Shown: one piece after another, positions 13,249-28,350 of the stretch
How positions within the stretch are numbered: the first letter of the stretch is position 1
Layout: the number at the start of each line of letters is the position of its first letter
Source of the DNA: Candidatus Obscuribacteraceae bacterium
GTDB taxonomy: Bacteria; Cyanobacteriota; Vampirovibrionia; Obscuribacterales; Obscuribacteraceae
DNA: 64,000 bases
Direction of reading: 5' to 3'
NCBI GenBank assembly: GCA_044226015.1
Contig: JBGAHS010000002.1
Location: 39,029 to 103,028 of the forward strand
Notes under the pieces: generated by a model
Seen by the model: the letters and a program-made list of their open reading frames with translations, nothing else
Database searches by the model: none
Told to the model about the DNA's origin: nothing
Program-made: the position numbers and the translations under genes

Positions 13249-13274
13249 CGAAAGCCGCTTAAATTCAGTGTTTG

Positions 13275-14411: not shown

Positions 14412-14429
14412 ACCTCGTTTGAGCAAACC

Positions 14430-14487: not shown

Positions 14488-14539
14488 CCGAACCGGATTC
14501 GGATATGGAGCTAAACTGGATGGATGCAAGAAATGTATT

Positions 14540-14592: not shown

Positions 14593-14603
14593 ACTAACCC
14601 TGA

Positions 14604-15317: not shown

Positions 15318-15466
15318 AACACTTACCTCATACCGACTAAAGAATGTACTTGAACGCAGTAACAAACAGCTTGTTGTTAGTTGTTTGTTCCGTCTTGCTG
15401 ACAAAAAGGAGAGCGCATCATGCTATACCAGATTGTCGACGAACTTAATTTATGAAGGTTCCTCAT

Positions 15467-16114
15467 TTATACTCCGATTGGAATAAACTTGGGAACCAGT
15501 CGGCGCCACTTCATCTCTTCGCCATATTGTTTGTATTCAGAGCCCAAACTTTCGAGGAGAAGTTTTTCCTCGTATTTGGCTCTGTTAAGCCAGAGAGGTG
15601 CCACCAAAAATAGAGTCAAGCAAACTGCAAGGGGTGAAAGTGAGGCGAGCGATGCCCCAAGTACACTTTGAATAATGCCTGAGTAAGCCGGGTGCATGAC
15701 GAACTTCAACAATCCATCTTTACGCACCTTATGACCATCGAGTACTTCCGCGTCAGTGGTGAAGCACTCTCCTAAAGAATACCAGCCACCGATCATAAAA
15801 ACCAATCCGCTAAAGAACTGAATTACACCCCACCAGCCGATCGGCTGAGCGGCTTCAGGAGCCACAAATGGTATCGGACACAGAATCATCGCAAGTGTTC
15901 CGCCAATCAAACCAAATTGCGCTAAGAAGCCGAGAATCAGAACGATGACTGTTAGCAGAGTTGAGTATTGCGGTGCACGTTGAATCAGAAAATTCACTTC
16001 GTAAAAGACACCGGTTCCACGTCTCTGAAAACCTTTATATAGAACTGGCGCTGAAAGAAGAGCTCCGATACCAGCCAGAATTGCCGTGCATATGGTCGGC
16101 GGTGAAAGTTGCAT
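15467..16114 (-). CDS. isoprenylcysteine carboxyl methyltransferase / phospholipid methyltransferase family membrane protein
   Basis: Multi-TM protein ending in VRKDGLLKFVMHPAYSGIIQSVLG...LNRAKYEEKLLLESLGSEYKQYGEEMKWRRLVP, the typical ICMT/PEMT C-terminal signature. Confidence 0.8.
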   Translation of the reverse strand: MQLSPPTICTAILAGIGALLSAPVLYKGFQRRGTGVFYEVNFLIQRAPQYSTLLTVIVLILGFLAQFGLIGGTLAMILCPIPFVAPEAAQPIGWWGVIQFFSGLVFMIGGWYSLGECFTTDAEVLDGHKVRKDGLLKFVMHPAYSGIIQSVLGASLASLSPLAVCLTLFLVAPLWLNRAKYEEKLLLESLGSEYKQYGEEMKWRRLVPKFIPIGV

Positions 16115-16131
16115 ACGAACCAGGATCCTCC

Positions 16132-16896
16132 CTAGAGATCAAAAAGCGTGTCGTTTAAATCGATATTGAGCTGGACATCTTTCCAATTTGTATGAGCAAA
16201 CAGCTTTCCGTCCTTATAATCAAACCACTCGCGTGGTAACAATGTCTGTGGGTCTATGTAAGCGCGCTTCATGAGTTCGTCTTTGGACGCACTCGTATAG
16301 AGTTCGATTATGTAAACGGGCTTCGGATGACCTTCTACTGTAACAGTCGATTCTGTCACCAAACTTTTCTTGCCTGCCTTAACAAAGTTAAGCATGACTT
16401 GGGACATTCCGTAGAAATCAGAATCAACAAGCGGGTATCCGTTACCTGACCGAACCCATTCAGAATCAGGGTCAACAGTTGCTACAAATTTCGACATCAA
16501 ACCGCCGAGATGCCCTTTGACCTTTCCGTTCTTTAACAGAACTGCACACGAACCTTTCTTAAAAGGTCCCAACTCCTCTGCGCGAATCTGACGAGGACGC
16601 TTGTAATAAAACTTACTGTTCTCTTCGATCGACTTTCCACCTTTGTAGACCGTCATGTGAGATTGAAATGTATAGGACTTCAGCTGATCGGCAGCGTCTG
16701 CCATTTCTTTGAGAAAATCGGCGCCATCACGCATGCGCTCTTGAGTTTGTCCAGCTGCGGCTGAAACTGAAGTTGCTTTGTCTGGAACGCGGGTCGGCAG
16801 CTGGGTGCTTTCTGCAAGACCTGGATTGAGCAAACTCAACGCGAAAGTGGCAAGACTGATTTGCAGTAATCTGGAGAACCTGGTTCTAAAGTGCAT
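16132..16896 (-). CDS. secreted hypothetical protein (possibly LolA-like fold)
   Basis: Signal peptide MHFRTRFSRLLQISLATFALSLLNPGLA. Ends 17 nt upstream of the ICMT-family gene on the same strand. The fold assignment is only a guess from size and composition. Confidence 0.6.
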   Translation of the reverse strand: MHFRTRFSRLLQISLATFALSLLNPGLAESTQLPTRVPDKATSVSAAAGQTQERMRDGADFLKEMADAADQLKSYTFQSHMTVYKGGKSIEENSKFYYKRPRQIRAEELGPFKKGSCAVLLKNGKVKGHLGGLMSKFVATVDPDSEWVRSGNGYPLVDSDFYGMSQVMLNFVKAGKKSLVTESTVTVEGHPKPVYIIELYTSASKDELMKRAYIDPQTLLPREWFDYKDGKLFAHTNWKDVQLNIDLNDTLFDL

Positions 16897-17106
16897 CTGT
16901 ATTGACTCTTGGTTTGGAGCTCAGTGTGAATAACCGGTTATATCTGGATATTAGGACCAAAAAAGGAAGTTCAGTTAACGAGACTTTCCCCTTTGCTAGC
17001 TTCCGCATGATTATGCCATGACTGCAAAAGCACGTTCCTTAGAGGTACTTGATGTTGCCAAGATCCGCCAGCGATGGCGCGGATTGAGCGCTGCGATAAA
17101 ACTTAA

Positions 17107-17802
17107 CTAATTGGATCGTGCTCCCACGATCGATTCTTTCGGACACTCCCAGAGTGCAAGCGTCGCATCAAGAACCTCTTGGGCAGCCTCAGGAATTTGC
17201 TCACCGTGGGTCTCATTCAAATCGTCCAGCATACGCTTCATCCAGATGGCGTGGCGCATATGCGTTCTTGCATGCAAGCGAACCCACTCTAACCCCTGGC
17301 TGATAAGCGCCGGCTCATATTCAGCTGCATGTTTTTCAAAATATTTTTCGCAACTCGGCAAAGCGGCGCGACAATACATCGTCGCGGCCAGTTCGGCGGC
17401 AACTATGGAATGAATGCCCTCTGCAAAAGTCTTCCGGGTGCACATTTCAGTCATCACATCGCAAAGGTTCTTAGTCACAGGGCCCACCGGCGCTGCTTCG
17501 ACCTCTTCTAAAGTGACGCCAGCAAGAGGAAATTGGTGCAAGAAAAGACCCTGATATTTACTTTCGTCATCGCTGAGACGATTCAGAAGCTGAGAAGCTG
17601 CGCTCATTTCAGGTGGCAAGGCATCCCTTACAGTACGAATGTTCTGTGGCAGCTCTTTCATAAAAGGCCAGAGGACGAAGATTATTTTTCGTCCACGTTC
17701 TCTGAATTTGCCATCAGCCAGGTCGATAAACCAGGGACTGACCGAGCAGCCCCAGCTTAGTCTTTCTATCAAAACTGGCATCCAACCTGGCAGAGACCCC
17801 AT
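17107..17802 (-). CDS. heme-oxygenase-like fold protein (TenA/PqqC/CADD-type, possible diiron enzyme)
   Basis: 231-aa all-helical ORF. C-terminal LHARTHMRHAIWMKRM gives H-x3-H-x2-H, in the position of the H-x3-D-x2-H metal-ligand helix of CADD-like proteins. An AAELAATMY helix is also present. Divergent from the GH3 operon. Confidence 0.5.
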   Translation of the reverse strand: MGSLPGWMPVLIERLSWGCSVSPWFIDLADGKFRERGRKIIFVLWPFMKELPQNIRTVRDALPPEMSAASQLLNRLSDDESKYQGLFLHQFPLAGVTLEEVEAAPVGPVTKNLCDVMTEMCTRKTFAEGIHSIVAAELAATMYCRAALPSCEKYFEKHAAEYEPALISQGLEWVRLHARTHMRHAIWMKRMLDDLNETHGEQIPEAAQEVLDATLALWECPKESIVGARSN

Positions 17803-17992
17803 CTAACCCTTTTCTTCCTCGCAACACACACTAAATGCGAAACTCTACTTTACCGCAGAGCAGTTAAGTCATGGCATGGACGAAGCGCATTGCTTAACCC
17901 TTTTCAATGTTTTAAAGAAAGAAAGTTTCGCGAAAGGTTCCTTCGCTTGACCTCTTTTTACAAATTCGGAACCCTGCTTCATCTCGTAGCCT

Positions 17993-18928
17993 TTGCTCTT
18001 TATGCTTTTCGCCACCCTTGATAGAATTCTAAAGATGACAGTAAGCAGGCAAAACAAAACTGAACCATTCGTATCTAACACTTTGACCAGGGTCGAGTCC
18101 GCAGATGGAACAGAAAATTTGATACGCGTTTGGGAAGCCACGGCTCCAGACGCCTTCGTTCTGTACTTACACGGCATTGAAGGTCATAGTTTGTGGTTCG
18201 ATGAGAGTGCGAGTTTTTTAGCTAAGCACGGAATAAGCACCTTCGCGCTTGATCGCCGCGGCTCAGGATGCAGCAAGGAAGCACGCGGTGATGCAAAAGA
18301 TCCTCAGCAACTTCTGAATGATGTGCGGGCGGCGCTTAGATTCGCACGAGAAAAGTCCGCAAGAAAGCCACTCTTCCTGATGGCAAATTGCTGGGGCGCA
18401 AAACTTGCCGCAATTTTAGCGGAGAGGCAAAATCCAGAATCGCAGATGCTAGCAGGGCTGGTACTCAGTTCGCCAGCTATCGAAGTGAAGGTCGACCTTT
18501 CTTTCCAGGAAAAGCTGCAGGTAGCCTGGCGACTCTTGCTCGGCAATCGCGATCCGCTTCCACTGCCGCTAAAGGTTGAAGATTTCACGAACAACCCTGT
18601 TTATTTGAAATACATCGCAGAAGACACAAAGCGCCTGACCACAGCAACTGCTCGATTTTTGTTTTGCACTATGCTCTTGACGAAAATGAGTCAACGCAGC
18701 GCAGAGAAAATAACGCTGCCGACACTTGTGTTGCAATCAGGAATTGACACCATAGTTGATGAGCCTGGCATCAAGAAATGGTTTGAGCGATTGGCTGCAA
18801 GCGATAAAAAATTTGTCTTATATCCTGAGGTGCACCACAGCCTCGACTTTGATGCGAATCCGCATGCCTACAGAGAAACACTGCTTGATTGGCTGCAAGA
18901 GCATTTGAAGGAGCATAAGCAGCCGTGA
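17993..18928 (+). CDS. alpha/beta hydrolase (lysophospholipase/monoacylglycerol-lipase-like) with Cys at the nucleophile elbow
   Basis: FVLYLHGIEGHSLWFDE (HG oxyanion region). The elbow is LMANCWGAK instead of GxSxG (Cys codon 18389-18391). Late Asp (SGIDTIVD) and His (EVHHSLDF). The start may be ATG 18035. Confidence 0.8.
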   Translation: MLFMLFATLDRILKMTVSRQNKTEPFVSNTLTRVESADGTENLIRVWEATAPDAFVLYLHGIEGHSLWFDESASFLAKHGISTFALDRRGSGCSKEARGDAKDPQQLLNDVRAALRFAREKSARKPLFLMANCWGAKLAAILAERQNPESQMLAGLVLSSPAIEVKVDLSFQEKLQVAWRLLLGNRDPLPLPLKVEDFTNNPVYLKYIAEDTKRLTTATARFLFCTMLLTKMSQRSAEKITLPTLVLQSGIDTIVDEPGIKKWFERLAASDKKFVLYPEVHHSLDFDANPHAYRETLLDWLQEHLKEHKQP

Positions 18929-20136
18929 GAATTCGTTCAATTGAAACCTTCAAGATAACTCTTCCTTTTCGCTTCGCGTTTGGACACTCGCTTGCCACGC
19001 GCGCCGAGTCCCGAAATCTGATCGTGAAAGTAACACTTGCCAATGGAATTTGCGGCTATGGCGAGAGCGTACCGAGAGACTATGTCACAGGTGAAACGGT
19101 TGAACAGGCAGAAGATAACGTGCTGCTGAACTATGCACCAGCACTGCAGAAAACGTCATTTGATGACCCCAAAAAGCTTCTGAGCACCCTGAGCGAAACT
19201 TTCTTTTCGATGGGGCTTGATGACAAAATGCAAGGGGCATCATGGTGCGCACTCGAGCTAGCATTCTTAGACGCTTGCAGCAGATTGCACGAGATGCAGC
19301 TTCATCAGCTCATTGGCACCCACAAGCAAGATAAGATTCGCTATGGCGGAACAGTTCCGTTTGGAAAGAAGAAAGCGCTTCAAGCAATTCTGAACTTCTA
19401 TAAGATTTATGGCTTTGAAACTGTCAAACTAAAAGTCGGAGCAGCCAAGCTTGAAGATGACGTGGAGAAAGTGAAGTTGGCTCGCAGCATTCTAGGTGCA
19501 AATCGGAAGATTCGCGTAGATGCAAACTGTGCCTGGACACTGGATGAAGCGCTCAGAGCAGCTGAAGCATTCAGACCATACGGCATTCTTTCCTATGAAC
19601 AACCCCTGCCAGCAAATAAATGGGACGAACTCAAAAAGCTTAGCGAGCAAATTGAAGAAGATGTTTTACTCGATGAGTCTTTATGCACATTGAGGCAAGC
19701 AAGCGAACTAGCTAGCAACAGAATTTGCGATGCGTTCAACGTGCGCGTATCGAAGGCAGGAGGCATCTTTGCTTCGCAGAAAATGATTGATATTGCGTTG
19801 AATGCAAATCTGAAAGTTCACCTCGGGGCACAGGTTGGCGAAAGCGGAATTCTCAGCGCAGCTGCAAGACACTTAGCTTTGACAAACGAGAAAATGGAAA
19901 ATTATGAAGGGTCAGCAAACTTTTTTCTGCTGAAGAAAGACATCTGCAAAGAGAATCTAAATGCTGGACTCGGCGGTTTCGGTGACCTTCGTTTTGCAGC
20001 TAAGACTGGCGGTACCGGAATAAACATAATTGACAAAAATCTGAATTCGATGACTGATTCTTGTGATGAGAGTCAGGCAGATGCGATAACCCCCCGGGTC
20101 CAAAATCAAGGATCCTTGAGCCCAAAAGCGAGGTAA
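18925..20136 (+). CDS. enolase-superfamily enzyme, mandelate racemase/muconate lactonizing (dipeptide or N-acyl-amino-acid epimerase-like)
   Basis: ETVKLKVG, IRVDANCAW, SYEQPL and LLDESL give the K / D-E-D metal-ligand pattern of MR/MLE enzymes. GTG start overlaps the upstream stop (GTGA). Confidence 0.85.
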   Translation: MRIRSIETFKITLPFRFAFGHSLATRAESRNLIVKVTLANGICGYGESVPRDYVTGETVEQAEDNVLLNYAPALQKTSFDDPKKLLSTLSETFFSMGLDDKMQGASWCALELAFLDACSRLHEMQLHQLIGTHKQDKIRYGGTVPFGKKKALQAILNFYKIYGFETVKLKVGAAKLEDDVEKVKLARSILGANRKIRVDANCAWTLDEALRAAEAFRPYGILSYEQPLPANKWDELKKLSEQIEEDVLLDESLCTLRQASELASNRICDAFNVRVSKAGGIFASQKMIDIALNANLKVHLGAQVGESGILSAAARHLALTNEKMENYEGSANFFLLKKDICKENLNAGLGGFGDLRFAAKTGGTGINIIDKNLNSMTDSCDESQADAITPRVQNQGSLSPKAR

Positions 20137-20138
20137 TT

Positions 20139-21830
20139 GTGGCGTTCAATCCTTACATTTTCATAGGGCAGTGTTATCGCGAGTTGACCCATATCAAAAA
20201 GTTCAAACAAGCGCTTTCTCGTCCGAGACAGGCTCAAGAAGAGAAACTGTTGAGCATTATTCGCCAGAACGAAAACACAGACTTTGGCAGGAAGCATCGT
20301 TTCTCTGAGATACGCAACATTCAGGACTTCCAGAGACTGGTGCCTCCAAACACTTACGAGACCCTTGAGCCATACATAGAAAAGTCCATGGCGGGAGAGA
20401 GAAATCAGCTTACGACGGAGAAGCCGCTTATGTTTGCCACTACCAGTGGCACCACAGGCAAGCCCAAATACATTCCCATAACTCCAACACACCTGAAGGA
20501 CTACACCCACGCGTTTCACATTCACAACTGGGGAATGATTAAAGACAACCCTGAAGCGGTGCACCACCCAGGCGGACGTTACCTCATCTTCAATTCAAAT
20601 GACGAAGAAGGTTTCACTAAAGATGGTACTCCATTTGGTGCCGTCTCTGGCTTGCTTCGCCGCAAACAATCTCCTCTTGTTCAGCGCTACATCGCACTGC
20701 CTTCACTGGTTAGCAGAATCAAAGACGTCGAATCAAAGTACTACACGATTTTAAGACTTTCACTGGTTCAAGACATTATCGCTATTACGAGTTGCAACCC
20801 GTCAACACTTCTTCTGCTGGCAGATCAGTTGCAAGAACACGCGGCAAGCTTGATAAAAGATATCAATGACGGAACCCTGGCAAAATTCGTGAAACCGGGC
20901 GCAGATGTTGCCCAGGAATTGAGTACTTACTTGAAAGCTGACCCGGCGTGCGCAAAGCGGCTGTCTTCAATTCTAGAGAAAAAAGGCGAATTACTTCCAA
21001 GCGAAGCATGGCCAAACTTAAGAATAATAAGCGTCTGGAAGGGTGGTCCGATGCCTTTCTATCTCAAGAAGCTTCCAGAAAAATTTGGCAACATTCCATT
21101 TAGAGACTTTGGCTATATGGCCAGTGAAGGCAGAGGCACCATTCCACTGAAAGACGACGGAGCAGGTGGCGTGGCAGCTTTAACTTCTCACTTCTTTGAA
21201 TTTGTGCCGGAAGAAGACGAAGGAAAAGAAGAAAGACGTTTTCTCACCTTAGACCAGCTCGAATTGGGCAAACGCTATTTCATTCATTTCACAACCGCAG
21301 CGGGACTTTACAGATACAACATCAATGACTTGATGGAGGTCGTAGGCTTTGAGGAAAAGACTCCAATCCTTCAATTTGTTCAAAAAGGAATGGGCATTAG
21401 TTCCATCACTGGCGAAAAATTGACTGAAGAACAAGTCTCTGTCGCCTTGCAGTATGCAATCAGACAGCACAGCCTGGACCAGATTGATCATTTCATACTG
21501 GCAGTCGAGTTGGCTGACGTTCCGTATTACAAAGGATACGTTGAGAACTCTGGAGAGCTGCCTGAGTCTGTGCTCAGCGCCATGGCTCGAACAATCGACC
21601 TTTCTCTACAATTACAGAATATAGAGTACAAGGACAAACGCGAGTCCATGCGCCTTGCTCCTATTCAGTTAGTCGAGGTTCCGCGCGGAACTTTCAAACG
21701 ACTCAGACAGCAGCGAGTTCATGATGGCGCACCAGAAGCTCAAGTAAAGATACCGTTTCTTACAAACAACAGCAGATTCAGCCAAGATATTGCTAAACTG
21801 ACGAACGCAGAACTTGCACTACAGGTCTAG
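20139..21830 (+). CDS. GH3-family acyl-acid amido synthetase-like adenylating enzyme
   Basis: N-terminal FGRKHRFSEIRNIQDFQRLVPPNTYETLEPYIEK and ATTSGTTGKPKYIPIT, plus C-terminal YRYNINDLMEV, which are GH3 hallmarks. GAGGT lies 6 nt before GTG 20139, 2 nt after the upstream stop. Confidence 0.85.
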   Translation: MAFNPYIFIGQCYRELTHIKKFKQALSRPRQAQEEKLLSIIRQNENTDFGRKHRFSEIRNIQDFQRLVPPNTYETLEPYIEKSMAGERNQLTTEKPLMFATTSGTTGKPKYIPITPTHLKDYTHAFHIHNWGMIKDNPEAVHHPGGRYLIFNSNDEEGFTKDGTPFGAVSGLLRRKQSPLVQRYIALPSLVSRIKDVESKYYTILRLSLVQDIIAITSCNPSTLLLLADQLQEHAASLIKDINDGTLAKFVKPGADVAQELSTYLKADPACAKRLSSILEKKGELLPSEAWPNLRIISVWKGGPMPFYLKKLPEKFGNIPFRDFGYMASEGRGTIPLKDDGAGGVAALTSHFFEFVPEEDEGKEERRFLTLDQLELGKRYFIHFTTAAGLYRYNINDLMEVVGFEEKTPILQFVQKGMGISSITGEKLTEEQVSVALQYAIRQHSLDQIDHFILAVELADVPYYKGYVENSGELPESVLSAMARTIDLSLQLQNIEYKDKRESMRLAPIQLVEVPRGTFKRLRQQRVHDGAPEAQVKIPFLTNNSRFSQDIAKLTNAELALQV

Positions 21831-21837
21831 GAAAGAA

Positions 21838-22881
21838 ATGCAAACACAAAAGGTTCTTGTAACCGGCGCAAGCGGGATGGTTGGCTATCACACGGTGAAA
21901 GGGCTGCTCAGCCAGGGGCATGAAGTCACAGCTCTGATTAGACCCTCGAGCAACGATAGTGAGCTAAAAAATCTCAAAGGAAACCTGTGGATTAAGAGAG
22001 CGGAGCTCAATGATGAAAACGCGTTGCGTCTCGCGCTGAAAGACAGCGACATCGTAATTCATGCCGCAGGCATGGTAGACCCACATGCGAAGCGCGAGCA
22101 AATCTTCGAAGTAAATGTTGAGTGCACAAAGACCCTTCTTTCTCTGGCTGACGCCGCCAATGTCAAGCATTTCATTCATATTAGCAGCCTCTCAGTAATC
22201 ACGGGACAGGGCGATTTGCACGGCGCAAGCGAGGACATGCCGCTGGTATATTGCGGCGAATCTTACGCAGACTCCAAAGTTGATGCAGAAAAAGCAGTAA
22301 CCATGTTTTTCGGTCGTGGCAGTATGATGGTCAGCATTCTGCGACCGGGTTTCATTTATGGCCCCATGGAAAAAGCATGGATGCCGCGCCTCATCGAAAA
22401 CTTGCGCACAAGAAAAGCGATGCTTATTGATGGCGGAATTAAGCAAACCAACGTTATTTACGTCGACAATCTATTCTCCGCAATAAGCCTGTCAATGCTA
22501 AACCCCAAAGCGGATAAGCAAGTTTTCAATCTCACAGATGGTGAGATTGTGACAAAGAAGGAGCTTTTCGATGCCATTTGTGATGGCATGGGTTTCAAAA
22601 GAATCAACAAAGAAGTTCCGGGTTGGCTCGCTAAGGCTGCCTGTGAGGTGGTTTCATGCATCGCCCCTTATCTTCCAGAAGATTCGAGAAAAGGACTTTC
22701 ACGTTTTTCAAGAGCCGCATTCAGGCTGGCTGGCGTCAATCAAGGCTTCGACATCAGCAAAGCAGAACGCGTTCTCGGCTATACCCAACGAATTCCATTT
22801 GGTGAAGGTATGCGCGTGACAGTTGAGTACTTTAAGAAGAACACAGCCGCGAGCAATCGCGATAAAGCAGCTGTAAAATAA
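21838..22881 (+). CDS. NAD-dependent epimerase/dehydratase (extended SDR, 3-beta-HSD-like)
   Basis: KVLVTGASGMVGYH Rossmann motif and YADSK catalytic YxxxK. ATG 21838 lies 7 nt after the GH3 stop. The ORF-track start 21814 overlaps GH3 and is less likely. Confidence 0.85.
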   Translation: MQTQKVLVTGASGMVGYHTVKGLLSQGHEVTALIRPSSNDSELKNLKGNLWIKRAELNDENALRLALKDSDIVIHAAGMVDPHAKREQIFEVNVECTKTLLSLADAANVKHFIHISSLSVITGQGDLHGASEDMPLVYCGESYADSKVDAEKAVTMFFGRGSMMVSILRPGFIYGPMEKAWMPRLIENLRTRKAMLIDGGIKQTNVIYVDNLFSAISLSMLNPKADKQVFNLTDGEIVTKKELFDAICDGMGFKRINKEVPGWLAKAACEVVSCIAPYLPEDSRKGLSRFSRAAFRLAGVNQGFDISKAERVLGYTQRIPFGEGMRVTVEYFKKNTAASNRDKAAVK

Positions 22882-22912
22882 GCAGACCAAGAACTCACGC
22901 GGAGTTAAAAAG

Positions 22913-23215
22913 ATGTCGGTTCTTCAACCTGTCGCAGACTTTGTGGTCGATTACATCGGTCGCCACAAGCATCCGGTTAACGCGTTCTTACACATCTTCG
23001 GCGTGCCCATGGTTTTCTATGGTGTCTACAAGCTCTTTTGTGGGGAAAGTGAGCTTGCAATGGCTTGGACTCTAATAGTGTTTGGCTATGTGCTTCAATA
23101 TCTGGGTCACAAGGCACAAGGCAACGAAGTGGGCGAGGTCACCCTCATCAAGAAAATTTGGAAAAAACTGGCGAAGAAAAATTCCGGCATAGAAGAGAGC
23201 GGCGCAAATGAGTGA
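22913..23215 (+). CDS. DUF962 / Mpo1-like small membrane protein
   Basis: YIGRHKHPVNAFLHIFGVPMVFYGV and LQYLGHKAQGNEVGE match the His-rich DUF962 (yeast Mpo1-like) pattern. 100 aa with two TM segments. Confidence 0.65.
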   Translation: MSVLQPVADFVVDYIGRHKHPVNAFLHIFGVPMVFYGVYKLFCGESELAMAWTLIVFGYVLQYLGHKAQGNEVGEVTLIKKIWKKLAKKNSGIEESGANE

Positions 23216-24131
23216 ACAAAATCAGATCATCGCAGTGGACGGAGCTAGTGGATATGTCGGCAGCCACCTTATCCACGCTTTATGCAAAAGTGGTGTCCGT
23301 GTTAGAGCAATCGTCCATCCTAAAGCTAACCTTTCGGACTGCCAGTTTCTCTCGGAATGCGGCGCCGAGATTTACAAAACCGACATTGATGCCAATTCGC
23401 CAACTCTGATAGACGCACTGACGGGAGCAAGCACCGTCATACATTTAATTGGAAGCATCGCTCCGAAAAAAGGGCAGAAACTTGAAGAGCTTCATGCAGG
23501 CATAACGCAGCAACTCGTAAAAGCAGCACAAAGCACTAACACTAAGATTTTGATGATTACGGCACTGGGCACATCAGCTGACGCCCTCAGCCAATATCAC
23601 AAGACAAAATGGCAAGCAGAAGAGCTTGTTCGCAAGAGCGGATTGCCCTACACAATTCTTCGACCATCACTGATTTTAGGCAGACAGGTTGGAAGACGTG
23701 ACAGCAAGTTGATGGCACGATATATCGAGCTGATCAAAACAAGACCTAAAGTACCTCTTCTTGGGGGAGGCAAAAATCTACTGCAGCCGGTTTTCATCGG
23801 TGACTTAAGCCGCGCAATTTCAAAGCTTGCATTGAGTCAGGAAATGACTGGAAAGACTCTAGAAATTGGCGGTGCCGAAGTTCTTTCAATGCAAGAACTG
23901 GTGAGCAAGCTGATGGATGCTATCGGCAAACGCAAGCCACTGCAGCCGGTGCCTCCTGCTTTAGCGAATATCTTAGCCAGCGTGTTGGAGCTGGTGCAAT
24001 CAGTTCCGATGGTAAGCAAAGACCAGGTGAAACTATCAACGACTGACAATATTTGCAGTGACAACGCACTGGAAAATCAACTTGCCTTAACACCAACGCC
24101 ATTGGCTAAGGCACTGGCTACTTACAGATAG
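23208..24131 (+). CDS. NAD(P)H-binding atypical SDR (NDUFA9/Ycf39-like)
   Basis: IIAVDGASGYVGSHLIHAL and YHKTKWQAEELVRKSGLPYTILRPSLILG. The start overlaps the upstream stop by 8 nt (ATGAGTGA). Confidence 0.8.
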   Translation: MSEQNQIIAVDGASGYVGSHLIHALCKSGVRVRAIVHPKANLSDCQFLSECGAEIYKTDIDANSPTLIDALTGASTVIHLIGSIAPKKGQKLEELHAGITQQLVKAAQSTNTKILMITALGTSADALSQYHKTKWQAEELVRKSGLPYTILRPSLILGRQVGRRDSKLMARYIELIKTRPKVPLLGGGKNLLQPVFIGDLSRAISKLALSQEMTGKTLEIGGAEVLSMQELVSKLMDAIGKRKPLQPVPPALANILASVLELVQSVPMVSKDQVKLSTTDNICSDNALENQLALTPTPLAKALATYR

Positions 24132-24144
24132 ATTGGAGTCAATT

Positions 24145-25146
24145 GTGCCAGCAGTACTAGTAACAGGGGCAAGCGGATTTCTGGGAGCACGACTGTGCGA
24201 ACGACTTCACGAAATGGGTGTAGAAGTCAAAACATTCGGGCGCCAGGCTGCGCAAACCGAGCGATTAAATCGTCTGGCAATACCGCATGTTCAGGGCGAT
24301 ATCTGCGATCTTGACTCATTCAAAAAAGCACTGGTTGACGTAGGCGCTGTTTTCCACCTTGCAGGACTGGTTTCTTATCGCCGATGCGACTATGACTTGC
24401 TCTATAAAATAAATGTTTTAGGGACACGCAATGTAATGAAAGCCTGCCTTGAAGCAAATGTTCAAAGAGTGATCAACATGGGCTCAATTGCTGGTATGGG
24501 AATTCCTGAGCCAGGCAAGCTTGGAACCGAAGAAATTGAATATAACTTGAAGGGTCACGGGCTGCACTATTGCGATACCAAATTCGAAGCAGAGCAAGAA
24601 GCATTAAGGGTTGCAAAACAAGGACTGAATGTCCTGTCACTTAACCCTGGTATCACATTTGGTGAAGGAGACACGCACCCTCACCACCATACTATTTTCA
24701 GATCAATGCTGAGCGGGTGGTTCATAGGCTATCCCGCCGGTGGAGTTATGTTTTCTGACATTGAAGATGTAGTTTCTACCTGCATCGCTAGCCTCAGCAG
24801 AGGACAGGCCGGGCAGAGATATGTGATCGGAACTGCAAACCTTAGCTTTAAAGAGGCTGGCGATATGTTAGCGACAGTTCTGAATGGACGCAAACCAATT
24901 TTTCAAATACCAGGTTGGCTGGCTGAGTCAGCAGGTGTAGTTTGCGAAACTGTCTTTCCTTTGTTTAAAATGAAACCAGCACTGTCATGGCAGGTTGCCT
25001 GGCTCAGTCAGAGAAAAATCTTCTATAGCTCTGACAAAGCTATTGCTGAACTGGGCTTGAACCAAACGCCATTCATCGAAACGTTACGAAGAACTGCGCC
25101 ATACTACCTGGGACAAAATTCCCAAGTACTTAGCACAGCACATTGA
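24145..25146 (+). CDS. NAD-dependent epimerase/dehydratase (dihydroflavonol-reductase-like extended SDR)
   Basis: VLVTGASGFLGARLCERL and YCDTKFEAE (YxxxK). GGAG lies 6 nt before GTG 24145. The ORF-track start is TTG 24133. Confidence 0.8.
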   Translation: MPAVLVTGASGFLGARLCERLHEMGVEVKTFGRQAAQTERLNRLAIPHVQGDICDLDSFKKALVDVGAVFHLAGLVSYRRCDYDLLYKINVLGTRNVMKACLEANVQRVINMGSIAGMGIPEPGKLGTEEIEYNLKGHGLHYCDTKFEAEQEALRVAKQGLNVLSLNPGITFGEGDTHPHHHTIFRSMLSGWFIGYPAGGVMFSDIEDVVSTCIASLSRGQAGQRYVIGTANLSFKEAGDMLATVLNGRKPIFQIPGWLAESAGVVCETVFPLFKMKPALSWQVAWLSQRKIFYSSDKAIAELGLNQTPFIETLRRTAPYYLGQNSQVLSTAH

Positions 25147-25173
25147 ACAGGAAGGCAAACAACAGGAACTAAC

Positions 25174-26079
25174 ATGCATAAATTGCTACAACATTTATTT
25201 CTTGTTGCCAGCTTACTCATCATCGCTGCAACTCCAGGTCTGGCACAAAACAAGGCCACGGAATTGTCGGTGGGACCAAACGCCAAACTAAAAACCCGTT
25301 TTAGCGTGCCGTTAAATTTGCCAACCCTGTTCAACTACAAAACACGGGCCGAAATTCTAGCGATGCGGAAAAGGGAAATCGACAAGATTCCAGGACTTTT
25401 GAAATCACCTTATGAGCCTTACACACCAATATGGAGTGCAATTGAAGACGGCAAACCCTGGTGGGGATTAGCCGGTGCTGGCATCTTCGACTCTGGAAAA
25501 AGGAGCATGACCGGCCCAGCGGAAGAATCACGCTTCGTCATGAATCCCTATCTATTGGTTGCGGCAAACCCAGGAGCTGGTGGTATTTGGAACCCCGCAG
25601 CATTTACGCCCAAGGAAATGAATGACCCGGCTTTTCCATTTTTCTGGCTGCCAGAATCATTGGAAATTGATCCGACGCGCCCACTTGGAGTAGTGAAATA
25701 CGACATTACAAAATGGCACCAGGACTGCATCGCAACCGGAAAACTCCGAGGAAGAGTTTCCATAAAGCGCTTCAGCCTCGTTGCTTATAACGCCAGAGAT
25801 TTTGGCTACAACTATATTTACTTCAACCCTGAAAAATCCATCAACGTAATCAATGACATACCTACTCACGATGCGGCTTTCATAAAACAGTTCATTCACT
25901 GCGGTGGCACATGTGGATGCCCAACGTCATGTTGCAACAACATGAGTCCATTCATGGATGAAATCGATCGACTCAGAATTACACGCCTGCCAGCAAGAGC
26001 TGTTGTCTATTTATGGAAAGAGAGTCCAGCTGATGTGCAAAAATCGCCCGACATGGTTTTCCTGATCGAGTTCCACTAA
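25174..26079 (+). CDS. secreted hypothetical protein with a C-terminal cysteine cluster
   Basis: Signal peptide MHKLLQHLFLVASLLIIAATPGLA. Cluster HCGGTCGCPTSCCNN. Starts 27 nt after the preceding SDR gene on the same strand. No family recognised. Confidence 0.65.
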   Translation: MHKLLQHLFLVASLLIIAATPGLAQNKATELSVGPNAKLKTRFSVPLNLPTLFNYKTRAEILAMRKREIDKIPGLLKSPYEPYTPIWSAIEDGKPWWGLAGAGIFDSGKRSMTGPAEESRFVMNPYLLVAANPGAGGIWNPAAFTPKEMNDPAFPFFWLPESLEIDPTRPLGVVKYDITKWHQDCIATGKLRGRVSIKRFSLVAYNARDFGYNYIYFNPEKSINVINDIPTHDAAFIKQFIHCGGTCGCPTSCCNNMSPFMDEIDRLRITRLPARAVVYLWKESPADVQKSPDMVFLIEFH

Positions 26080-26234
26080 GATGACACCAAATATGGTGCG
26101 CTATCATTCGGTTCGCTTACGCCGATAATTAGTTACGAATAGTTCTTTGCAATCATTAAAGCTTAGCTGGAAGTTTTGGCGCATATAGCCAACAGGTGAG
26201 ACAATAGATATTCGGGGATATGCAGGCATGATGC

Positions 26235-27434
26235 ATGTTTTGCAAAGGCAAGCTGAAAAGTCATCAATATATTAGAAGAGCTGAAGCAAGCTCTTTTCTT
26301 AGCGCCTTCTTGGCGATAGCGCTTGTATTGCAGGTGGTTTCGCTGCCAATGGCGTTAGCTGCCGACAAAGCGGGTAGTTCGCCCCTGGATACAGCCAGCG
26401 CTTCAGTCGACGGTACTGAGCCTGACAAGTCGATGCTGGGCGAAATACCAGCAACAGATTCCCCAAAAGCAAAAGACGGCATGGTCGAGCAATCCGGCGA
26501 CAGCAGTCCTGACTCCCCAAATTCTGCAACAAGCTCATCAGGCGACTCTGAATCATCTGCAAAAGCAGATGCGAGAAAGAAAAAGAAGAAAGTAGAGTTC
26601 GCAGACGTTCTTCCGACTCTCACCTGGATTGACCCAGATGTCGAACCTAAGGCTATCCTTCTCTGCGTACACGGGCTAGGGCTGCATAACGATGCCTATG
26701 ATGCATTCGGCAAAACTATGGCCAAACATGGCTACCTGGTCTATGCGGTGGATGTGCCGGGCTTCGGCAGCTTCAAAGCTGCAGAGGGTCGCGAGAGAAT
26801 CGATTTCGACTACTGCCTCCGTGGAATTGAGCACACCTTACATTTCGTTCACAAAGTAAACCCTAAGATGCCCGTCTTCATTCTTGGCGAATCGATGGGT
26901 GGCGCTATTGCATTACGGGTGACTTCACAGCATCCAGAGTTGGTTGCAGGACTGGTAAGCTCCGTTCCATCAGGAGACAGATTTAATCAAGGCAAAGAAA
27001 CTTTCAGAGTCGGGCTAAAACTGCTCACAGCTCCGAACAAGGAGTTTGACATTGGATCGAGCGTAATCAGCAGAGCCACGAGCAAAGACGACCTCAAAGA
27101 GCGCTGGGAAAAAGATCCCTTAAATAGGATGGCGCTTACACCGAAGGAACTCGTAAGGTTTCAAGATTTCATGAATGAGAATCATGAAAGTGCTAAAAGC
27201 ATTACCAATACACCAGTTTTGTTTGTTCAAGGCTGCAAGGATACTCTTGTCCGCCCGGAAGGCACAATGGAGCTCTACAACCAAATTTCCAGTCCAGATA
27301 GAGAGCTGGAATTAATTCATGATGGCGAGCACCTAATTTTCGAAGAGAATCAGTTTAATGATGAGGTGATCAAGAAACTAGATAAATGGCTAACTAGCCA
27401 TCTCACCACAAGCAAACAACTAGGCAGCAAATAA
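26235..27434 (+). CDS. secreted alpha/beta hydrolase (lysophospholipase-like) with Ser/Asp-rich linker
   Basis: Signal/TM (FLSAFLAIALVLQVVSLPMALA), S/D-rich low-complexity linker, ILLCVHGLGLHNDAY, canonical elbow ILGESMGGAIAL, and late DGEHLIF. Confidence 0.8.
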   Translation: MFCKGKLKSHQYIRRAEASSFLSAFLAIALVLQVVSLPMALAADKAGSSPLDTASASVDGTEPDKSMLGEIPATDSPKAKDGMVEQSGDSSPDSPNSATSSSGDSESSAKADARKKKKKVEFADVLPTLTWIDPDVEPKAILLCVHGLGLHNDAYDAFGKTMAKHGYLVYAVDVPGFGSFKAAEGRERIDFDYCLRGIEHTLHFVHKVNPKMPVFILGESMGGAIALRVTSQHPELVAGLVSSVPSGDRFNQGKETFRVGLKLLTAPNKEFDIGSSVISRATSKDDLKERWEKDPLNRMALTPKELVRFQDFMNENHESAKSITNTPVLFVQGCKDTLVRPEGTMELYNQISSPDRELELIHDGEHLIFEENQFNDEVIKKLDKWLTSHLTTSKQLGSK

Positions 27435-27460
27435 AAGAGAAGAAACTCAAGGGGAGTAAA

Positions 27461-28219
27461 ATGAATTCCGAAAAACAGATGAAGCTCAAACGTGTGCTGG
27501 GAGCGTTGATTCTAACAGCCACTATTGGTGGGCCTCTCGCGTCGATTGCTGCTCCAGCTCCTACAACTCCGATGACATTGGGCAAGGCAGCGCTGGTTCA
27601 GAAAAATTATGCAAAAGCAGTGACAATATACGAGCAGGCAGCGAAAACCGACCAATACAAAAACAGCTGCGAATGCCGTCTTGGACTGGGCAAATCGCTA
27701 TGCTTGTTGGGCACAGCACAAAAGGGTGAGCTTCAATCAGCCACCTACAAGAAGGCTGCAAAAGAATTGCGCACCGCCATTAGACTTGGCAGAGGCGGCG
27801 CTAATTCGCTTGAAGCCAACAAGATTTTGCTTACACAGCTTCCAAAATCAGCAACTGCTCCAAAAATGGGCGCTGACACTCCGATGATCGCAATGGCGCA
27901 CGGAATCAGAGGTAGAGACCGCGGAACAGGCGAGGCCAAGCCAAAAATTCTTGAGTTCACTGCTAAATGGTGTGAGCCATGCAAACAGTTGAAACCTATC
28001 ATCGATAAGGCTAAAGCTGATTACGGCGATAAAGTCGAATTCATTACTTACGATATTGATGATCCGAAATCGGAAAAAATCATCGAAGATTACGAAGTAA
28101 GCCCAATTCCAACCCTCATTTTCCTTGATGGAAGCAACCAGGTGATAACTTACTCGGTTGGATATTCTGGAGAAAACGGATTGAAGGCTGGCATCAAGAA
28201 GATTGTGCCGCAATCTTAG
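27461..28219 (+). CDS. periplasmic thioredoxin-domain protein with helical N-terminal region
   Basis: Signal peptide ...TATIGGPLASIAAPA. Thioredoxin core ILEFTAKWCEPCKQLKPIIDKA...VSPIPTLIFLDG with active site WCEPC (27968-27982). AAGGGGAG SD lies before the ATG. Confidence 0.8.
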   Translation: MNSEKQMKLKRVLGALILTATIGGPLASIAAPAPTTPMTLGKAALVQKNYAKAVTIYEQAAKTDQYKNSCECRLGLGKSLCLLGTAQKGELQSATYKKAAKELRTAIRLGRGGANSLEANKILLTQLPKSATAPKMGADTPMIAMAHGIRGRDRGTGEAKPKILEFTAKWCEPCKQLKPIIDKAKADYGDKVEFITYDIDDPKSEKIIEDYEVSPIPTLIFLDGSNQVITYSVGYSGENGLKAGIKKIVPQS

Positions 28220-28243
28220 TCCGAAACTAAAGACTCGATCCCG

Positions 28244-28278
28244 AAGCGAGAGCGCGAGCTCTCGCTTTTGCCCTTTTT
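28244..28278 (+). terminator. rho-independent terminator
   Basis: Perfect 10-bp stem AAGCGAGAGC (28244-28253) / GCTCTCGCTT (28258-28267) with a GCGA loop, followed by TTGCCCTTTTT. Lies 25 nt after the thioredoxin stop. Confidence 0.75.
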
Positions 28279-28350
28279 GAAGCGGAACTAATTCACAGAT
28301 CTTGGCTTGTGATAAGCTTTGACCATTGTTTATTGTGCAGGTGACTATTA

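What the first reader, a model, noticed from the sequence alone, without database searches (positions are those of the whole stretch)
17993..26079. Orphan eight-gene operon centred on a GH3 acyl-acid amido synthetase (candidate undescribed small-molecule or lipid-modification pathway)
Seen: eight same-strand ORFs with junctions of -4 (GTGA overlap), +2, +7, +31, -8 (ATGAGTGA overlap), +13 and +27 nt. SD-like GAGG/AGGA elements precede most starts, so this is one translationally coupled unit. The genes, in order:
- alpha/beta hydrolase with a Cys elbow
- MR/MLE enolase-superfamily enzyme (KLKVG, RVDAN, YEQPL, LDES)
- GH3 (TSGTTGKPKYIP, YRYNINDLMEV)
- extended SDR
- DUF962/Mpo1-like His-rich membrane protein
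- NDUFA9/Ycf39-like SDR
- a third extended SDR
- a secreted protein with a Cys cluster

Established:
- GH3 enzymes adenylate carboxylic acids and ligate them to amino acids.
- MR/MLE members of this type epimerise dipeptides or racemise N-acyl amino acids.
- Yeast Mpo1 is an Fe(II) dioxygenase acting on 2-hydroxy fatty acids.

Inference: the operon makes and tailors an N-acyl-amino-acid-like compound by epimerisation, redox steps and hydrolytic release, possibly for export. I know of no characterised bacterial pathway with this composition. Bacterial GH3 proteins are largely functionally unassigned.
Basis: partly seen in the sequence, partly recalled or inferred. Interest (0 to 1): 0.7.

Follow-up and report, generated by a model that had tools for sequence, protein, structure and literature searches.

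The report
Conserved GH3–epimerase–hydrolase–reductase gene module
The eight genes are real, but the unit that matters is an uncharacterised four-enzyme module (hydrolase, epimerase-type enzyme, GH3 ligase, reductase) linked in at least five bacterial phyla, which probably builds and stereo-inverts an acid–amino-acid conjugate.

Summary
The ORFs, junctions, SD-like motifs and all domain calls were confirmed. The window comes from an Obscuribacterales (non-photosynthetic cyanobacterial) genome.

The locus is not an orphan. Genes 1–7 keep the same order, strand and tight spacing in about 70–79 of 80 Obscuribacterales genomes, with GH3 identity down to 49%. Gene 8 is next to the cluster in only 5 of 80 and is not part of the core.

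The evolutionary core is smaller and much wider. A Ser/Cys alpha/beta hydrolase, an MLE-subgroup enolase enzyme, the GH3 ligase and the gene-4 SDR recur as neighbours, in varying order, in Chloroflexota, Omnitrophota, Hinthialibacteria and Planctomycetota.

No member reaches any curated equivalog cut-off. The one characterised bacterial GH3 system is OlsH/OlsI, which makes ornithine lipid (2025). It is an analogue, not an orthologue.

Most likely function: GH3 ligates a carboxylic (probably fatty) acid to an amino acid, the MLE enzyme epimerises that residue, and the hydrolase and SDR supply or process the acyl part. The substrates are inferred only.

Verdict: new variant of a known kind, directly testable. 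Interest 0.6.

The parts
17993..18928 (+). g1: alpha/beta hydrolase (Hydrolase_4, monoglyceride-lipase-like) with a Cys nucleophile. The likely true start is ATG 18035.
   Evidence: Pfam E = 2e-44. The best solved relatives are monoglyceride lipases. Cys133 and His282 are invariant in 76/76 orthologues. Partner-family orthologues in other phyla carry Ser or Cys at this position.
18925..20136 (+). g2: enolase-superfamily enzyme of the MLE subgroup, nearest to dipeptide / N-acyl-amino-acid epimerases. It forms a distinct family with E-G-S in place of the dipeptide-epimerase DxD motif.
   Evidence: Pfam. The best solved match is 1jpm/1tkk, L-Ala-D/L-Glu epimerase. KxK, the D/E/D metal ligands and the beta-6 Lys are conserved. 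No NCBIfam equivalog cut-off is reached.
20139..21830 (+). g3: GH3 acyl-acid amido synthetase (ATP-dependent ligase joining a carboxylic acid to an amino acid).
   Evidence: Pfam GH3 N, M and C domains. The nucleotide-binding motifs are invariant in alignment A1. The best solved relative is JAR1. It scores 116 bits against the OlsH model, whose cut-off is 620.
21838..22881 (+). g4: extended SDR. Its best, sub-threshold, matches are 2-alkyl-3-oxoalkanoate reductase (OleD) and HpnA. It is the fourth recurrent module member.
   Evidence: A g4-type SDR at 31-50% identity sits next to the module in Omnitrophota and in 8 metagenomic loci.
22913..23215 (+). g5: small Mpo1-like/DUF962 His-rich membrane protein. 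This is an Obscuribacterales-specific addition.
   Evidence: Pfam 38.2 bits, above the cut-off of 24. Present in 72/80 loci. His and QGNEVGE motifs are conserved.
23208..24131 (+). g6: NmrA/NAD_binding_10-type SDR, overlapping g5 by 8 nt. This is an Obscuribacterales-specific addition.
24133..25146 (+). g7: extended SDR whose best match is HpnA-like (210 bits, cut-off 368). This is an Obscuribacterales-specific addition.
25174..26079 (+). g8: secreted protein of unknown family with a C-terminal Cys cluster. It is an accessory gene, not a conserved member of the cluster.
   Evidence: No Pfam, NCBIfam or PDB match. Adjacent to the cluster in only 5/80 loci. The AlphaFold single-sequence model is unusable, with pLDDT 34.
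26235..28219 (+). d1 (26235-27434) is a secreted Ser-type alpha/beta hydrolase. d2 (27461-28219) is a TPR-thioredoxin protein. Both may be co-transcribed with the cluster in this genome, and linkage elsewhere is variable.
   Evidence: Pfam. d1 is within 10 kb in 24/80 loci and d2 in 15/80.
28243..28268 (+). The first strong intrinsic-terminator-like hairpin downstream of the cluster.
   Evidence: 11-bp stem with 6 GC pairs plus a T-run. Only short (5-6 bp) + strand terminator-like matches, all inside genes, lie between 17993 and 28219.
14604..17802 (-). Divergent neighbour set u1-u4:
- u1, 17107-17802: haem-oxygenase-like / CADD-like
- u2, 16132-16896: secreted, DUF1571-like
- u3, 15467-16114: ICMT/PEMT-type membrane methyltransferase
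- u4, 14604-15404: secreted SRPBCC

This is a possible tailoring or transport set.
   Evidence: Pfam and NCBIfam. Adjacent to the cluster in 55-69 of 80 loci. A terminator-like site at 14567-14553 follows u4. Caveat: the unrelated Ppx gene is equally conserved nearby.

Best explanation
**What it is.** g1-g4 form a conserved biosynthetic module, and g5-g7 extend it in Obscuribacterales.

**Proposed steps.**
1. The GH3 enzyme (g3) adenylates a free carboxylic acid, most plausibly a fatty or 3-oxo/3-hydroxy fatty acid. It then joins the acid to the alpha-amino group of an amino acid, giving an N-acyl amino acid with a free alpha-carboxylate.
2. The MLE-subgroup enzyme (g2) binds that carboxylate through Mg2+. 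It uses its two Lys bases to invert the alpha-carbon, giving the D-epimer.
3. The Ser/Cys alpha/beta hydrolase (g1) works through an acyl-enzyme intermediate. It either frees the acid substrate from an ester or thioester, or transfers a second acyl group as OlsI does.
4. The g4 SDR sets the oxidation state of a hydroxyl or keto group on the acyl chain.
5. In Obscuribacterales, two more SDRs and an Mpo1-like membrane protein tailor the product. The divergent ICMT-type methyltransferase, SRPBCC and DUF1571 proteins possibly tailor or move it, probably as an envelope lipid.

**Shown.** Domain identities, catalytic residues, and gene linkage across phyla.

**Inferred.** The substrates, the order of steps, the lipid nature of the product, and the roles of g1 and g4-g7.
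For: **Enzyme identities**
- GH3 has all three domains and invariant nucleotide-binding motifs.
- g2 has the full MLE-subgroup catalytic set, invariant across 77 orthologues and across five phyla.
- g2 is closest to L-Ala-D/L-Glu, dipeptide and N-succinyl-Arg/Lys epimerases, ahead of muconate cycloisomerases and OSBS. The dipeptide-ammonium DxD motif is replaced by E-G-S, as expected if the N-substituent is an acyl group.

**Linkage**
- g1-g7 are syntenic in about 70-79 of 80 Obscuribacterales genomes, with overlapping or near-zero gaps.
- abH-MLE-GH3 occurs in Chloroflexota.
- SDR...abH-MLE-GH3 occurs in Omnitrophota.
- MLE-GH3 occurs in Hinthialibacteria.
- MLE-abH occurs in Planctomycetota.
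- Among 30 metagenomic MLE-family loci with at least 1.8 kb of flank on both sides, 21 carry GH3 and/or the partner hydrolase. Gene order is shuffled but linkage is kept.

**Precedent.** OlsH (GH3) plus OlsI (alpha/beta hydrolase) make N-acyl-ornithine and then ornithine lipid from free fatty acid, ATP and Mg2+ (PMC12493201).

**Lipid flavour**
- g1's solved relatives are monoglyceride lipases.
- g4 and g7's best models are OleD, HpnA and SdmB.
- ICMT-type and SRPBCC neighbours are present.
Against: - No substrate, product or activity was tested here.
- GH3 scores 116 bits against the OlsH cut-off of 620. g1 does not match the OlsI model at all, so function cannot be transferred by orthology.
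- No acyl carrier protein, acyltransferase, glycosyltransferase or lipid transporter recurs next to the module in other phyla.
- The SDR hits are generic for extended SDRs.
- The u1-u4 adjacency could be order-level synteny inertia, because Ppx is equally conserved nearby.
- The MLE-abH pairs without GH3 in Planctomycetota show that the epimerase-type enzyme does not strictly need a neighbouring GH3.
Confidence: 0.42

Rival explanations
1. **Amino-acid stereoinversion by transient N-acylation.** GH3 acylates a D- or L-amino acid with a small recyclable acid. The MLE enzyme racemises the N-acyl amino acid. The alpha/beta hydrolase then deacylates one enantiomer stereospecifically. The net result is an ATP-driven, irreversible D/L inversion, with no stable conjugate as end product.
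For: The same three-step logic is established with enolase-superfamily racemases.
- The Geobacillus N-succinyltransferase / NSAR / desuccinylase operon (Sakai et al. 2006, cited in PMC12006748).
- The DgcN-DgcA D-glutamate route (PMC10845958; NCBIfam DgcA model hit at 83 bits).

Each member of the abH-MLE-GH3 triad gets a necessary role. Pfam describes Hydrolase_4 as serine aminopeptidase S33. The triad occurs without any SDR in Chloroflexota.
Against: - The known pathways use GNAT acyltransferases and metallo-amidohydrolases, not a GH3 and an alpha/beta hydrolase.
- g1's nearest solved relatives are lipid esterases, not amidases.
- The recurrent g4-type SDR and the three SDRs plus Mpo1-like protein in Obscuribacterales have no role in this scheme.
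- g2 scores far below the DgcA and NSAR/OSBS cut-offs.
Confidence: 0.2
2. **Only g1-g4 are a pathway.** g5-g8 and u1-u4 are unrelated neighbours held in place by order-level synteny and co-transcription. On this view the 'eight-gene pathway' is an over-reading.
For: - g5-g7 orthologues are not found beside the module outside Obscuribacterales-like loci.
- g8 is present in 5/80 loci.
- The unrelated Ppx gene is also conserved within 10 kb in 55/80 loci, which shows general synteny retention.
Against: - g4/g5/g6/g7 junctions are overlapping or at most about 4 nt (median) across genomes whose GH3 has diverged to 49% identity.
- There is no terminator-like site within the run.
- L095 has an Mpo1-like gene and an SDR beside an MLE-GH3 pair.
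Confidence: 0.15
3. **Menaquinone-like chemistry.** g1, g2 and g3 would be analogues of MenH (alpha/beta hydrolase), MenC (the MLE-subgroup enzyme o-succinylbenzoate synthase) and MenE (adenylating enzyme). They would act in gene order on a chorismate-derived acid.
For: - The gene order abH-MLE-adenylating enzyme mirrors the MenH-MenC-MenE reaction order (established pathway knowledge).
- g2 gives sub-threshold OSBS hits.
- The plant GH3.12 enzyme acts on a chorismate-derived acid (4epm; PMC12493201).
Against: - g2's OSBS scores are 63-86 bits against cut-offs of 130-288 and rank below the epimerases.
- g1 does not hit the MenH model, whereas d1 does, weakly.
- No MenD, MenB, MenF or MenA family appears among 140 flanking ORFs of module loci, nor in the window.
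- No GH3 enzyme is known to use CoA (PMC12493201).
Confidence: 0.04
4. **Lactone chemistry.** Two versions are possible.
- Muconate-type cycloisomerisation (g2) followed by Cys-dienelactone-hydrolase-type ring opening (g1).
- Ole-like chemistry, in which an SDR, an adenylating enzyme and an alpha/beta hydrolase make and process a beta-lactone.
For: - g2's top NCBIfam hit by score is the muconate/chloromuconate cycloisomerase subfamily, at 142 bits.
- g1 has a Cys nucleophile like dienelactone hydrolase, and a weak DLH Pfam hit.
- g4's best model is OleD, the 2-alkyl-3-oxoalkanoate reductase.
- OleB, OleC and OleD are an alpha/beta hydrolase, an adenylating enzyme and an SDR (established knowledge).
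Against: - All of these hits fall far below their cut-offs (142 against 335; 126 against 580).
- Solved muconate cycloisomerases score lower than the epimerases.
- No ring-cleavage dioxygenase, maleylacetate reductase or OleA thiolase is in any neighbourhood.
- The nucleophile is Ser in many partner hydrolases.
- GH3 enzymes are known only as intermolecular amide formers.
Confidence: 0.06

Closest known systems
OlsH/OlsI(/OlsG) ornithine-lipid pathway of Singulisphaera acidiphila (PMC12493201)
   Same: A bacterial GH3 ligase and an alpha/beta-hydrolase-fold enzyme are encoded in one operon. The GH3 enzyme uses free acid, ATP and Mg2+ to N-acylate an amino acid, and the hydrolase-fold enzyme acts on the lipid product.
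   Different: - GH3 scores 116 bits against the 620-bit OlsH cut-off, and g1 gives no OlsI hit.
- This module always carries an MLE-subgroup epimerase-type enzyme and often an SDR, both absent from OlsHI.
- There is no OlsG-type N-methyltransferase.
- The hydrolase nucleophile is Cys in Obscuribacterales.
- Substrates are unknown.
Dipeptide and N-acyl-amino-acid epimerases of the MLE subgroup: YkfB/YcjG L-Ala-D/L-Glu epimerase, BC0371 N-succinyl-Arg/Lys racemase, NSAR, DgcA
   Same: The catalytic machinery is the same: KxK, the D/E/D Mg2+ ligands and the beta-6 Lys. These are g2's best solved relatives. All of them act on an amino-acid residue that has a free carboxylate and an acylated amine.
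   Different: - The DxD ammonium-binding motif is E-G-S.
- g2 belongs to its own family, with an invariant PR-x-YVTGET loop.
- It lies below every equivalog cut-off.
- Its partners are a GH3 enzyme and an alpha/beta hydrolase, not a GNAT plus amidohydrolase or murein peptidases.
Plant GH3 acyl-acid amido synthetases (JAR1, GH3.5, GH3.6, GH3.12)
   Same: Same fold and motifs, and these are the best solved matches, JAR1 at 127 bits. The reaction type is the same: adenylation, then amide formation with an amino acid.
   Different: The bacterial gene is operon-embedded, shares only remote sequence similarity (JAR1 127 bits), and is coupled to an epimerase-type enzyme. No hormone context exists.
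Monoglyceride lipase / Hydrolase_4 alpha/beta hydrolases
   Same: Same fold, HG oxyanion motif and His/Asp triad positions. These are g1's best solved relatives.
   Different: The nucleophile is Cys in all 76 Obscuribacterales orthologues, and Ser or Cys in other phyla. The family signature is [SC]-W-[GA]-[AG]-K.

Membership tests
GH3 acyl-acid amido synthetase | GH3 N-terminal, middle and C-terminal domains above the Pfam gathering scores | tested here: met
   235, 75 and 63 bits against a cut-off of 23.6.
GH3 acyl-acid amido synthetase | The three nucleotide-binding motifs are conserved (TSGTTGK, YMASE, YRY-x-I-x-D) | tested here: met
   Invariant columns T101-T106, G325-E330, and Y391, R392, Y393 and D397 in A1.
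GH3 acyl-acid amido synthetase | ATP-dependent conjugation of an acid to an amino acid | not testable with these tools
   Needs an enzyme assay.
OlsH/OlsI ornithine-lipid pathway | The GH3 enzyme reaches the NCBIfam OlsH equivalog cut-off | tested here: not met
   116 bits against 620.
OlsH/OlsI ornithine-lipid pathway | The partner alpha/beta hydrolase matches the OlsI model | tested here: not met
   g1 gives no hit at E <= 0.01. d1 scores 19.5 bits against a cut-off of 385.
OlsH/OlsI ornithine-lipid pathway | GH3 and an alpha/beta hydrolase lie in one operon | tested here: met
   g1 and g3 are separated only by g2.
MLE subgroup of the enolase superfamily | KxK after beta-2, Asp/Glu/Asp metal ligands, and Lys after beta-6 | tested here: met
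   KLKVG, RVDAN, YEQP, LDES and SKAGG are conserved in 77 orthologues and across five phyla.
Dipeptide (L-Ala-D/L-Glu) epimerase | DxD motif after beta-8 that binds the dipeptide ammonium group. The motif definition comes from my own knowledge of the family. | tested here: not met
   YkfB D321/D323 align with E328 and S330, giving E-G-S, which is invariant across phyla.
Dipeptide epimerase / OSBS / muconate cycloisomerase / DgcA equivalogs | Score above the curated NCBIfam cut-off | tested here: not met
   Best scores are 142 against 335 (cycloisomerase), 95 against 500 (AEE), 86 against 200 (OSBS) and 83 against 400 (DgcA).
Acylate-racemise-deacylate D/L inversion operons (NSAR, DgcN/DgcA) | GNAT N-acyltransferase and metallo-amidohydrolase partners | tested here: not met
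   The partners here are a GH3 enzyme and an alpha/beta hydrolase.
Menaquinone MenH-MenC-MenE | Hits to the MenH and OSBS models, and MenD/MenB/MenF in the neighbourhood | tested here: not met
   g1 gives no MenH hit. OSBS hits are sub-threshold. No Men families appear among 140 flanking ORFs.
Serine alpha/beta hydrolase (Hydrolase_4 / monoglyceride lipase) | Ser nucleophile in the G-x-S-x-G elbow | tested here: not met
   Cys in 76/76 orthologues. The fold and the His are conserved.
Mpo1-like / DUF962 | Pfam PF06127 above the gathering score | tested here: met
   38.2 bits against 24, covering residues 5-67. Dioxygenase activity cannot be tested here.

The most novel reading that the evidence does not exclude
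The hydrolase-MLE-GH3-SDR module is a previously unrecognised pathway class, widespread in at least five phyla. In it an ATP-dependent GH3 ligase and an enolase-superfamily epimerase together make D-configured N-acyl amino acids, serving as lipo-amino-acid envelope lipids or signals. In Obscuribacterales the module would be the heart of an 11-gene lipid-building and lipid-tailoring locus.

A further untested extension concerns land plants. They hold both GH3 genes and a bacterially derived 'AEE' gene of unknown role (PMC3605383), so they may have inherited the two halves of this partnership.
Probability: 0.25. Interest if true: 0.8.

Novelty: new variant of a known kind. Interest (0 to 1): 0.6.

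Why it matters
**Bacterial GH3 enzymes.** They number in the thousands, yet only one (OlsH) has a proven function.

**The MLE subgroup.** It is a classic test bed for function prediction, yet this family, with its invariant PR-x-YVTGET loop and E-G-S motif, is unassigned.

**A testable hypothesis.** The two families are persistently linked, together with a Ser/Cys hydrolase and an SDR, across Obscuribacterales, Chloroflexota, Omnitrophota, Hinthialibacteria and Planctomycetota. That linkage gives a concrete hypothesis and a four-gene construct to express.

**If the product is a D-amino-acid lipid or conjugate,** three things follow:
- a new route to N-acyl-D-amino acids;
- a candidate envelope-lipid pathway for the almost uncultured non-photosynthetic cyanobacteria;
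- a CoA- and ACP-independent biocatalytic route to chiral N-acyl amino acids.

Tried and rejected
- **g8 structure.** The AlphaFold single-sequence model had mean pLDDT 34 and was unusable, so no fold search was run. A PDB sequence search found nothing.
- **RNA families.** An Rfam scan of 13000-30000 at E <= 0.1 found nothing, so no riboswitch or leader was detected.
- **Promoters.** The sigma-70 consensus scan found no promoter-like site in the g1/u1 divergent gap. That scan may not suit this phylum.
- **Literature.**
  - Obscuribacterales + GH3 gave 0 papers.
  - GH3 with epimerase, cycloisomerase or enolase-superfamily terms gave no paper linking them.
  - DUF962/Mpo1 returned only unrelated hits.
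- **Neighbourhood enrichment.** Pfam on 140 ORFs flanking the module found no further recurrent partner. NicO, in 7 loci, is probably redundancy among planctomycete-type loci, as in L088.
- **Menaquinone-like and muconate/dienelactone readings.** Both were considered because of the gene order and the Cys nucleophile. Both were set aside on scores and on the absence of pathway neighbours.
- **NDP-sugar / uronic-acid amidation.** This was considered because there are three extended SDRs. It was set aside because no glycosyltransferase or nucleotidyltransferase is conserved nearby.

Full report
**1. Observation**

The eight + strand ORFs are present as described. With the likeliest start codons the junctions are -4, +2, +7, +31, -8, +13 and +27 nt. 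SD-like GAGG, AGGA or GGAG motifs precede five of the seven internal starts.

Pfam confirms every domain call.

| Gene | Pfam result |
|---|---|
| g1 | Hydrolase_4 alpha/beta hydrolase |
| g2 | MR_MLE_N and MR_MLE_C |
| g3 | GH3 N, M and C domains |
| g4, g6, g7 | extended SDRs with intact GxxGxxG and YxxxK motifs |
| g5 | Mpo1-like/DUF962 |
| g8 | no family |

The 'Cys elbow' is real. Cys133 sits in an N-C-W-G-A-K motif.

No Rfam family lies in the region. No convincing + strand terminator occurs before 28243-28268, which is after two further genes: a secreted Ser-type hydrolase and a TPR-thioredoxin protein. g1 more likely starts at ATG 18035 than at TTG 17993, because orthologue conservation begins only near residue 43.

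**2. Source organism and conservation**

The GH3 protein has hundreds of relatives at 54-76% identity or more. Those that carry a name are called Candidatus Obscuribacterales or Melainabacteria. The window therefore comes from a non-photosynthetic cyanobacterium of that order.

A scan of one genome per species returned 80 loci with GH3 identity from 76% down to 49%.
- g1 to g7 are present in the same order and on the same strand in 72-79 of the 80 loci. Most gaps are contig ends.
- Median intergenic distances there are -14 to +4 nt.
- g8 is adjacent in only 5 loci, so it is not a core member.
- The four divergently transcribed genes upstream are adjacent in 55-69 loci. They are u1 (haem-oxygenase/CADD-like), u2 (secreted, DUF1571-like), u3 (ICMT/PEMT-type membrane methyltransferase) and u4 (secreted SRPBCC).
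- The unrelated Ppx gene is also conserved nearby, in 55 loci. Adjacency within this order is therefore weak evidence of function on its own.

**3. The core is wider than the order**

At 50% clustering the whole Obscuribacterales GH3 clade collapses to one representative. The next relatives are 38-44% identical.

Their contexts were as follows.

| Source (as labelled) | Arrangement | Details |
|---|---|---|
| Chloroflexota MAG | hydrolase-MLE-GH3 | 36%, 47% and 43% identity to g1-g3 |
| Hinthialibacteria genome | MLE overlapping GH3 | no adjacent hydrolase |
| Omnitrophota contig | methyltransferase - SDR - nitroreductase - hydrolase - MLE - GH3 | SDR 31% identical to g4; hydrolase has a Cys nucleophile |
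| Gemmataceae contig and an 8.7-Mb planctomycete-type contig | MLE overlapping the partner hydrolase | no adjacent GH3 |

A metagenome scan seeded with an alignment of six MLE proteins (A2) returned 80 further loci.
- 30 of them have at least 1.8 kb on both sides of the MLE gene.
- Among those 30, GH3 is adjacent in 14, the partner hydrolase in 13, either one in 21, and both in 6.
- Over all 80 loci, 54 show at least one partner.
- A g4-type SDR at 35-50% identity recurs in 8 loci.
- Gene order varies (abH-MLE-GH3, MLE-GH3, MLE-abH, GH3-SDR-MLE-abH, GH3-SDR-abH-MLE, SDR-abH-MLE-GH3) while linkage persists.

Linkage that survives reshuffling across phyla is the strongest computational evidence for functional coupling. 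The core is g1-g4. g5-g7 are Obscuribacterales additions.

Pfam on 140 ORFs flanking these modules found no other recurrent partner. In particular there were no Men enzymes, no ring-cleavage enzymes, no acyl carrier protein and no glycosyltransferases.

**4. The individual enzymes**

*GH3 (g3).* All nucleotide-binding motifs are invariant. The best solved relatives are plant JAR1 and the IAA-amido synthetases. Its only NCBIfam hit is OlsH, at 116 bits against a cut-off of 620.

*MLE enzyme (g2).*
- The KxK motif, the three metal ligands and the beta-6 Lys are invariant.
- Solved relatives rank as follows: L-Ala-D/L-Glu epimerase (122 bits), then other dipeptide epimerases (113), then the BC0371-type N-succinyl-Arg/Lys racemase entry 2p88 (98), then muconate cycloisomerases (about 70-82) and NSAR/OSBS (about 63-67).
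- The two Asp residues of YkfB (D321, D323) bind the dipeptide ammonium group; this role comes from my own knowledge of the family. They align with E328 and S330 of g2. E-G-S is invariant in all five phyla, and 2p88 also has Glu at the first position.
- This fits a substrate whose nitrogen carries an acyl group rather than an aminoacyl group.
- No equivalog cut-off is reached.

*Hydrolase (g1).*
- Its solved relatives are monoglyceride lipases.
- Cys is the nucleophile in 76/76 Obscuribacterales orthologues.
- The partner family carries Ser or Cys elsewhere. Cys appears in at least 10 of 34 metagenomic members, and every such member with enough flank also has GH3.
- A Ser/Cys swap implies an acyl-enzyme mechanism but does not separate hydrolysis from acyl transfer.

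*SDRs.* The best sub-threshold models are OleD (2-alkyl-3-oxoalkanoate reductase) for g4 and HpnA, then SdmB, for g7. This is suggestive of lipid-type substrates but generic for extended SDRs.

**5. Comparison with the known**

OlsH (a GH3 enzyme) and OlsI (an alpha/beta hydrolase) of Singulisphaera acidiphila make N-acyl-ornithine and then ornithine lipid from free fatty acid, ATP and Mg2+ (PMC12493201; review PMC12971839).

The present locus shares the GH3 plus alpha/beta-hydrolase pairing but fails the orthology tests. It also has an obligatory MLE-type partner that OlsHI lacks.

The acylate-racemise-deacylate logic of the NSAR operon (Sakai 2006, cited in PMC12006748) and of the DgcN-DgcA route (PMC10845958) is the second close analogue. 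It uses different acylating and deacylating enzyme families.

No paper in the searchable library links GH3 with an enolase-superfamily enzyme or mentions this locus.

**6. Most likely mechanism**

Only the enzyme classes and their linkage are shown. The steps below are inferred.
1. GH3 adenylates a free, probably fatty, acid and ligates it to an amino acid.
2. The MLE enzyme binds the free alpha-carboxylate of that product and inverts its alpha-carbon.
3. The Ser/Cys hydrolase either supplies the free acid from an ester or thioester, or O-acylates the product as OlsI does.
4. The g4 SDR adjusts a 3-oxo or 3-hydroxy (or similar) group.
5. In Obscuribacterales, g5-g7 tailor the product and u1-u4 possibly tailor or move it. 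ICMT-type enzymes methylate the free carboxylate of lipidated N-acyl amino-acid-like substrates (established knowledge for ICMT).

I put about 0.4 on this reading. I put about 0.2 on transient-acylation stereoinversion. Smaller weights go to the Men-like and lactone readings, and about 0.15 to the view that only g1-g4 form a pathway.

**7. Verdict**

The finding is not an orphan eight-gene operon. It is the Obscuribacterales elaboration of a widespread, uncharacterised four-enzyme module. It is a new variant of a known kind, namely GH3-dependent N-acyl-amino-acid or aminolipid synthesis, and it is readily testable. Interest 0.6.

Noticed in passing
window 14604-17802 (- strand): A divergent four-gene set lies next to the cluster in 55-69 of 80 Obscuribacterales genomes. 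It comprises a haem-oxygenase/CADD-like protein, a secreted DUF1571-like protein, an ICMT/PEMT-type membrane methyltransferase and a secreted SRPBCC protein. It may tailor or transport the product, but Ppx is equally conserved nearby, so the link is unproven.
   Followed up: partly
window 26235-28268: A second alpha/beta hydrolase is secreted, has a Ser/Asp/Pro-rich low-complexity N-terminal region and a classical GESMGG elbow. It is followed by a TPR-thioredoxin protein and then the first strong terminator. The pair is within 10 kb of the cluster in 24 and 15 of 80 genomes respectively.
   Followed up: partly
window 25174-26079: g8 has a signal peptide and a C-terminal HCGGTCGCPTSCCNN cysteine cluster. 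It has no Pfam, NCBIfam or PDB relative and is found beside the cluster only in the closest relatives. Its fold is unknown.
   Followed up: partly
L091-L170, L081, L088-L090 (partner hydrolases): The nucleophile of the partner alpha/beta-hydrolase family switches between Ser and Cys in different lineages (for example ISWGGK, SSWAAK, GCWGAK, LCLGGK, NCWGAK). All Cys forms with enough flanking sequence are next to a GH3 gene. The Ser 'ISWGGK' forms are mostly in MLE-hydrolase pairs without GH3.
   Followed up: partly
literature (PMC3605383) versus alignment A2: Land plants carry an 'L-Ala-D/L-Glu epimerase' gene of unknown role. It was acquired from bacteria, and its sister clade includes green non-sulfur bacteria. 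Land plants also have a large GH3 family. The bacterial MLE-GH3 linkage raises the question of whether the plant enzymes are functionally connected too. This was not tested.
   Followed up: no
L016, L017, L023, L032, L037, L041, L046, L048, L057: Contigs carrying a typical Obscuribacterales-type cluster are labelled by their depositors as Drouetiella, Chloroflexota, Actinobacteria, Bryobacterales, Proteobacteria, Planktothrix or Oculatellaceae. Mis-binning or mislabelling of MAGs is likely.
   Followed up: no
window 4221-7850 (- strand): A 1209-aa ORF has no Pfam match at E <= 1e-5.
   Followed up: no
L088 and L089 (planctomycete-type loci): The MLE-hydrolase pairs are preceded by a squalene-hopene-cyclase-like (weak hit) protein. 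L088 also has a NicO nickel-transporter-like gene, and the NicO family recurs in 7 metagenomic loci. L089 has split PLP-decarboxylase ORFs downstream.
   Followed up: no
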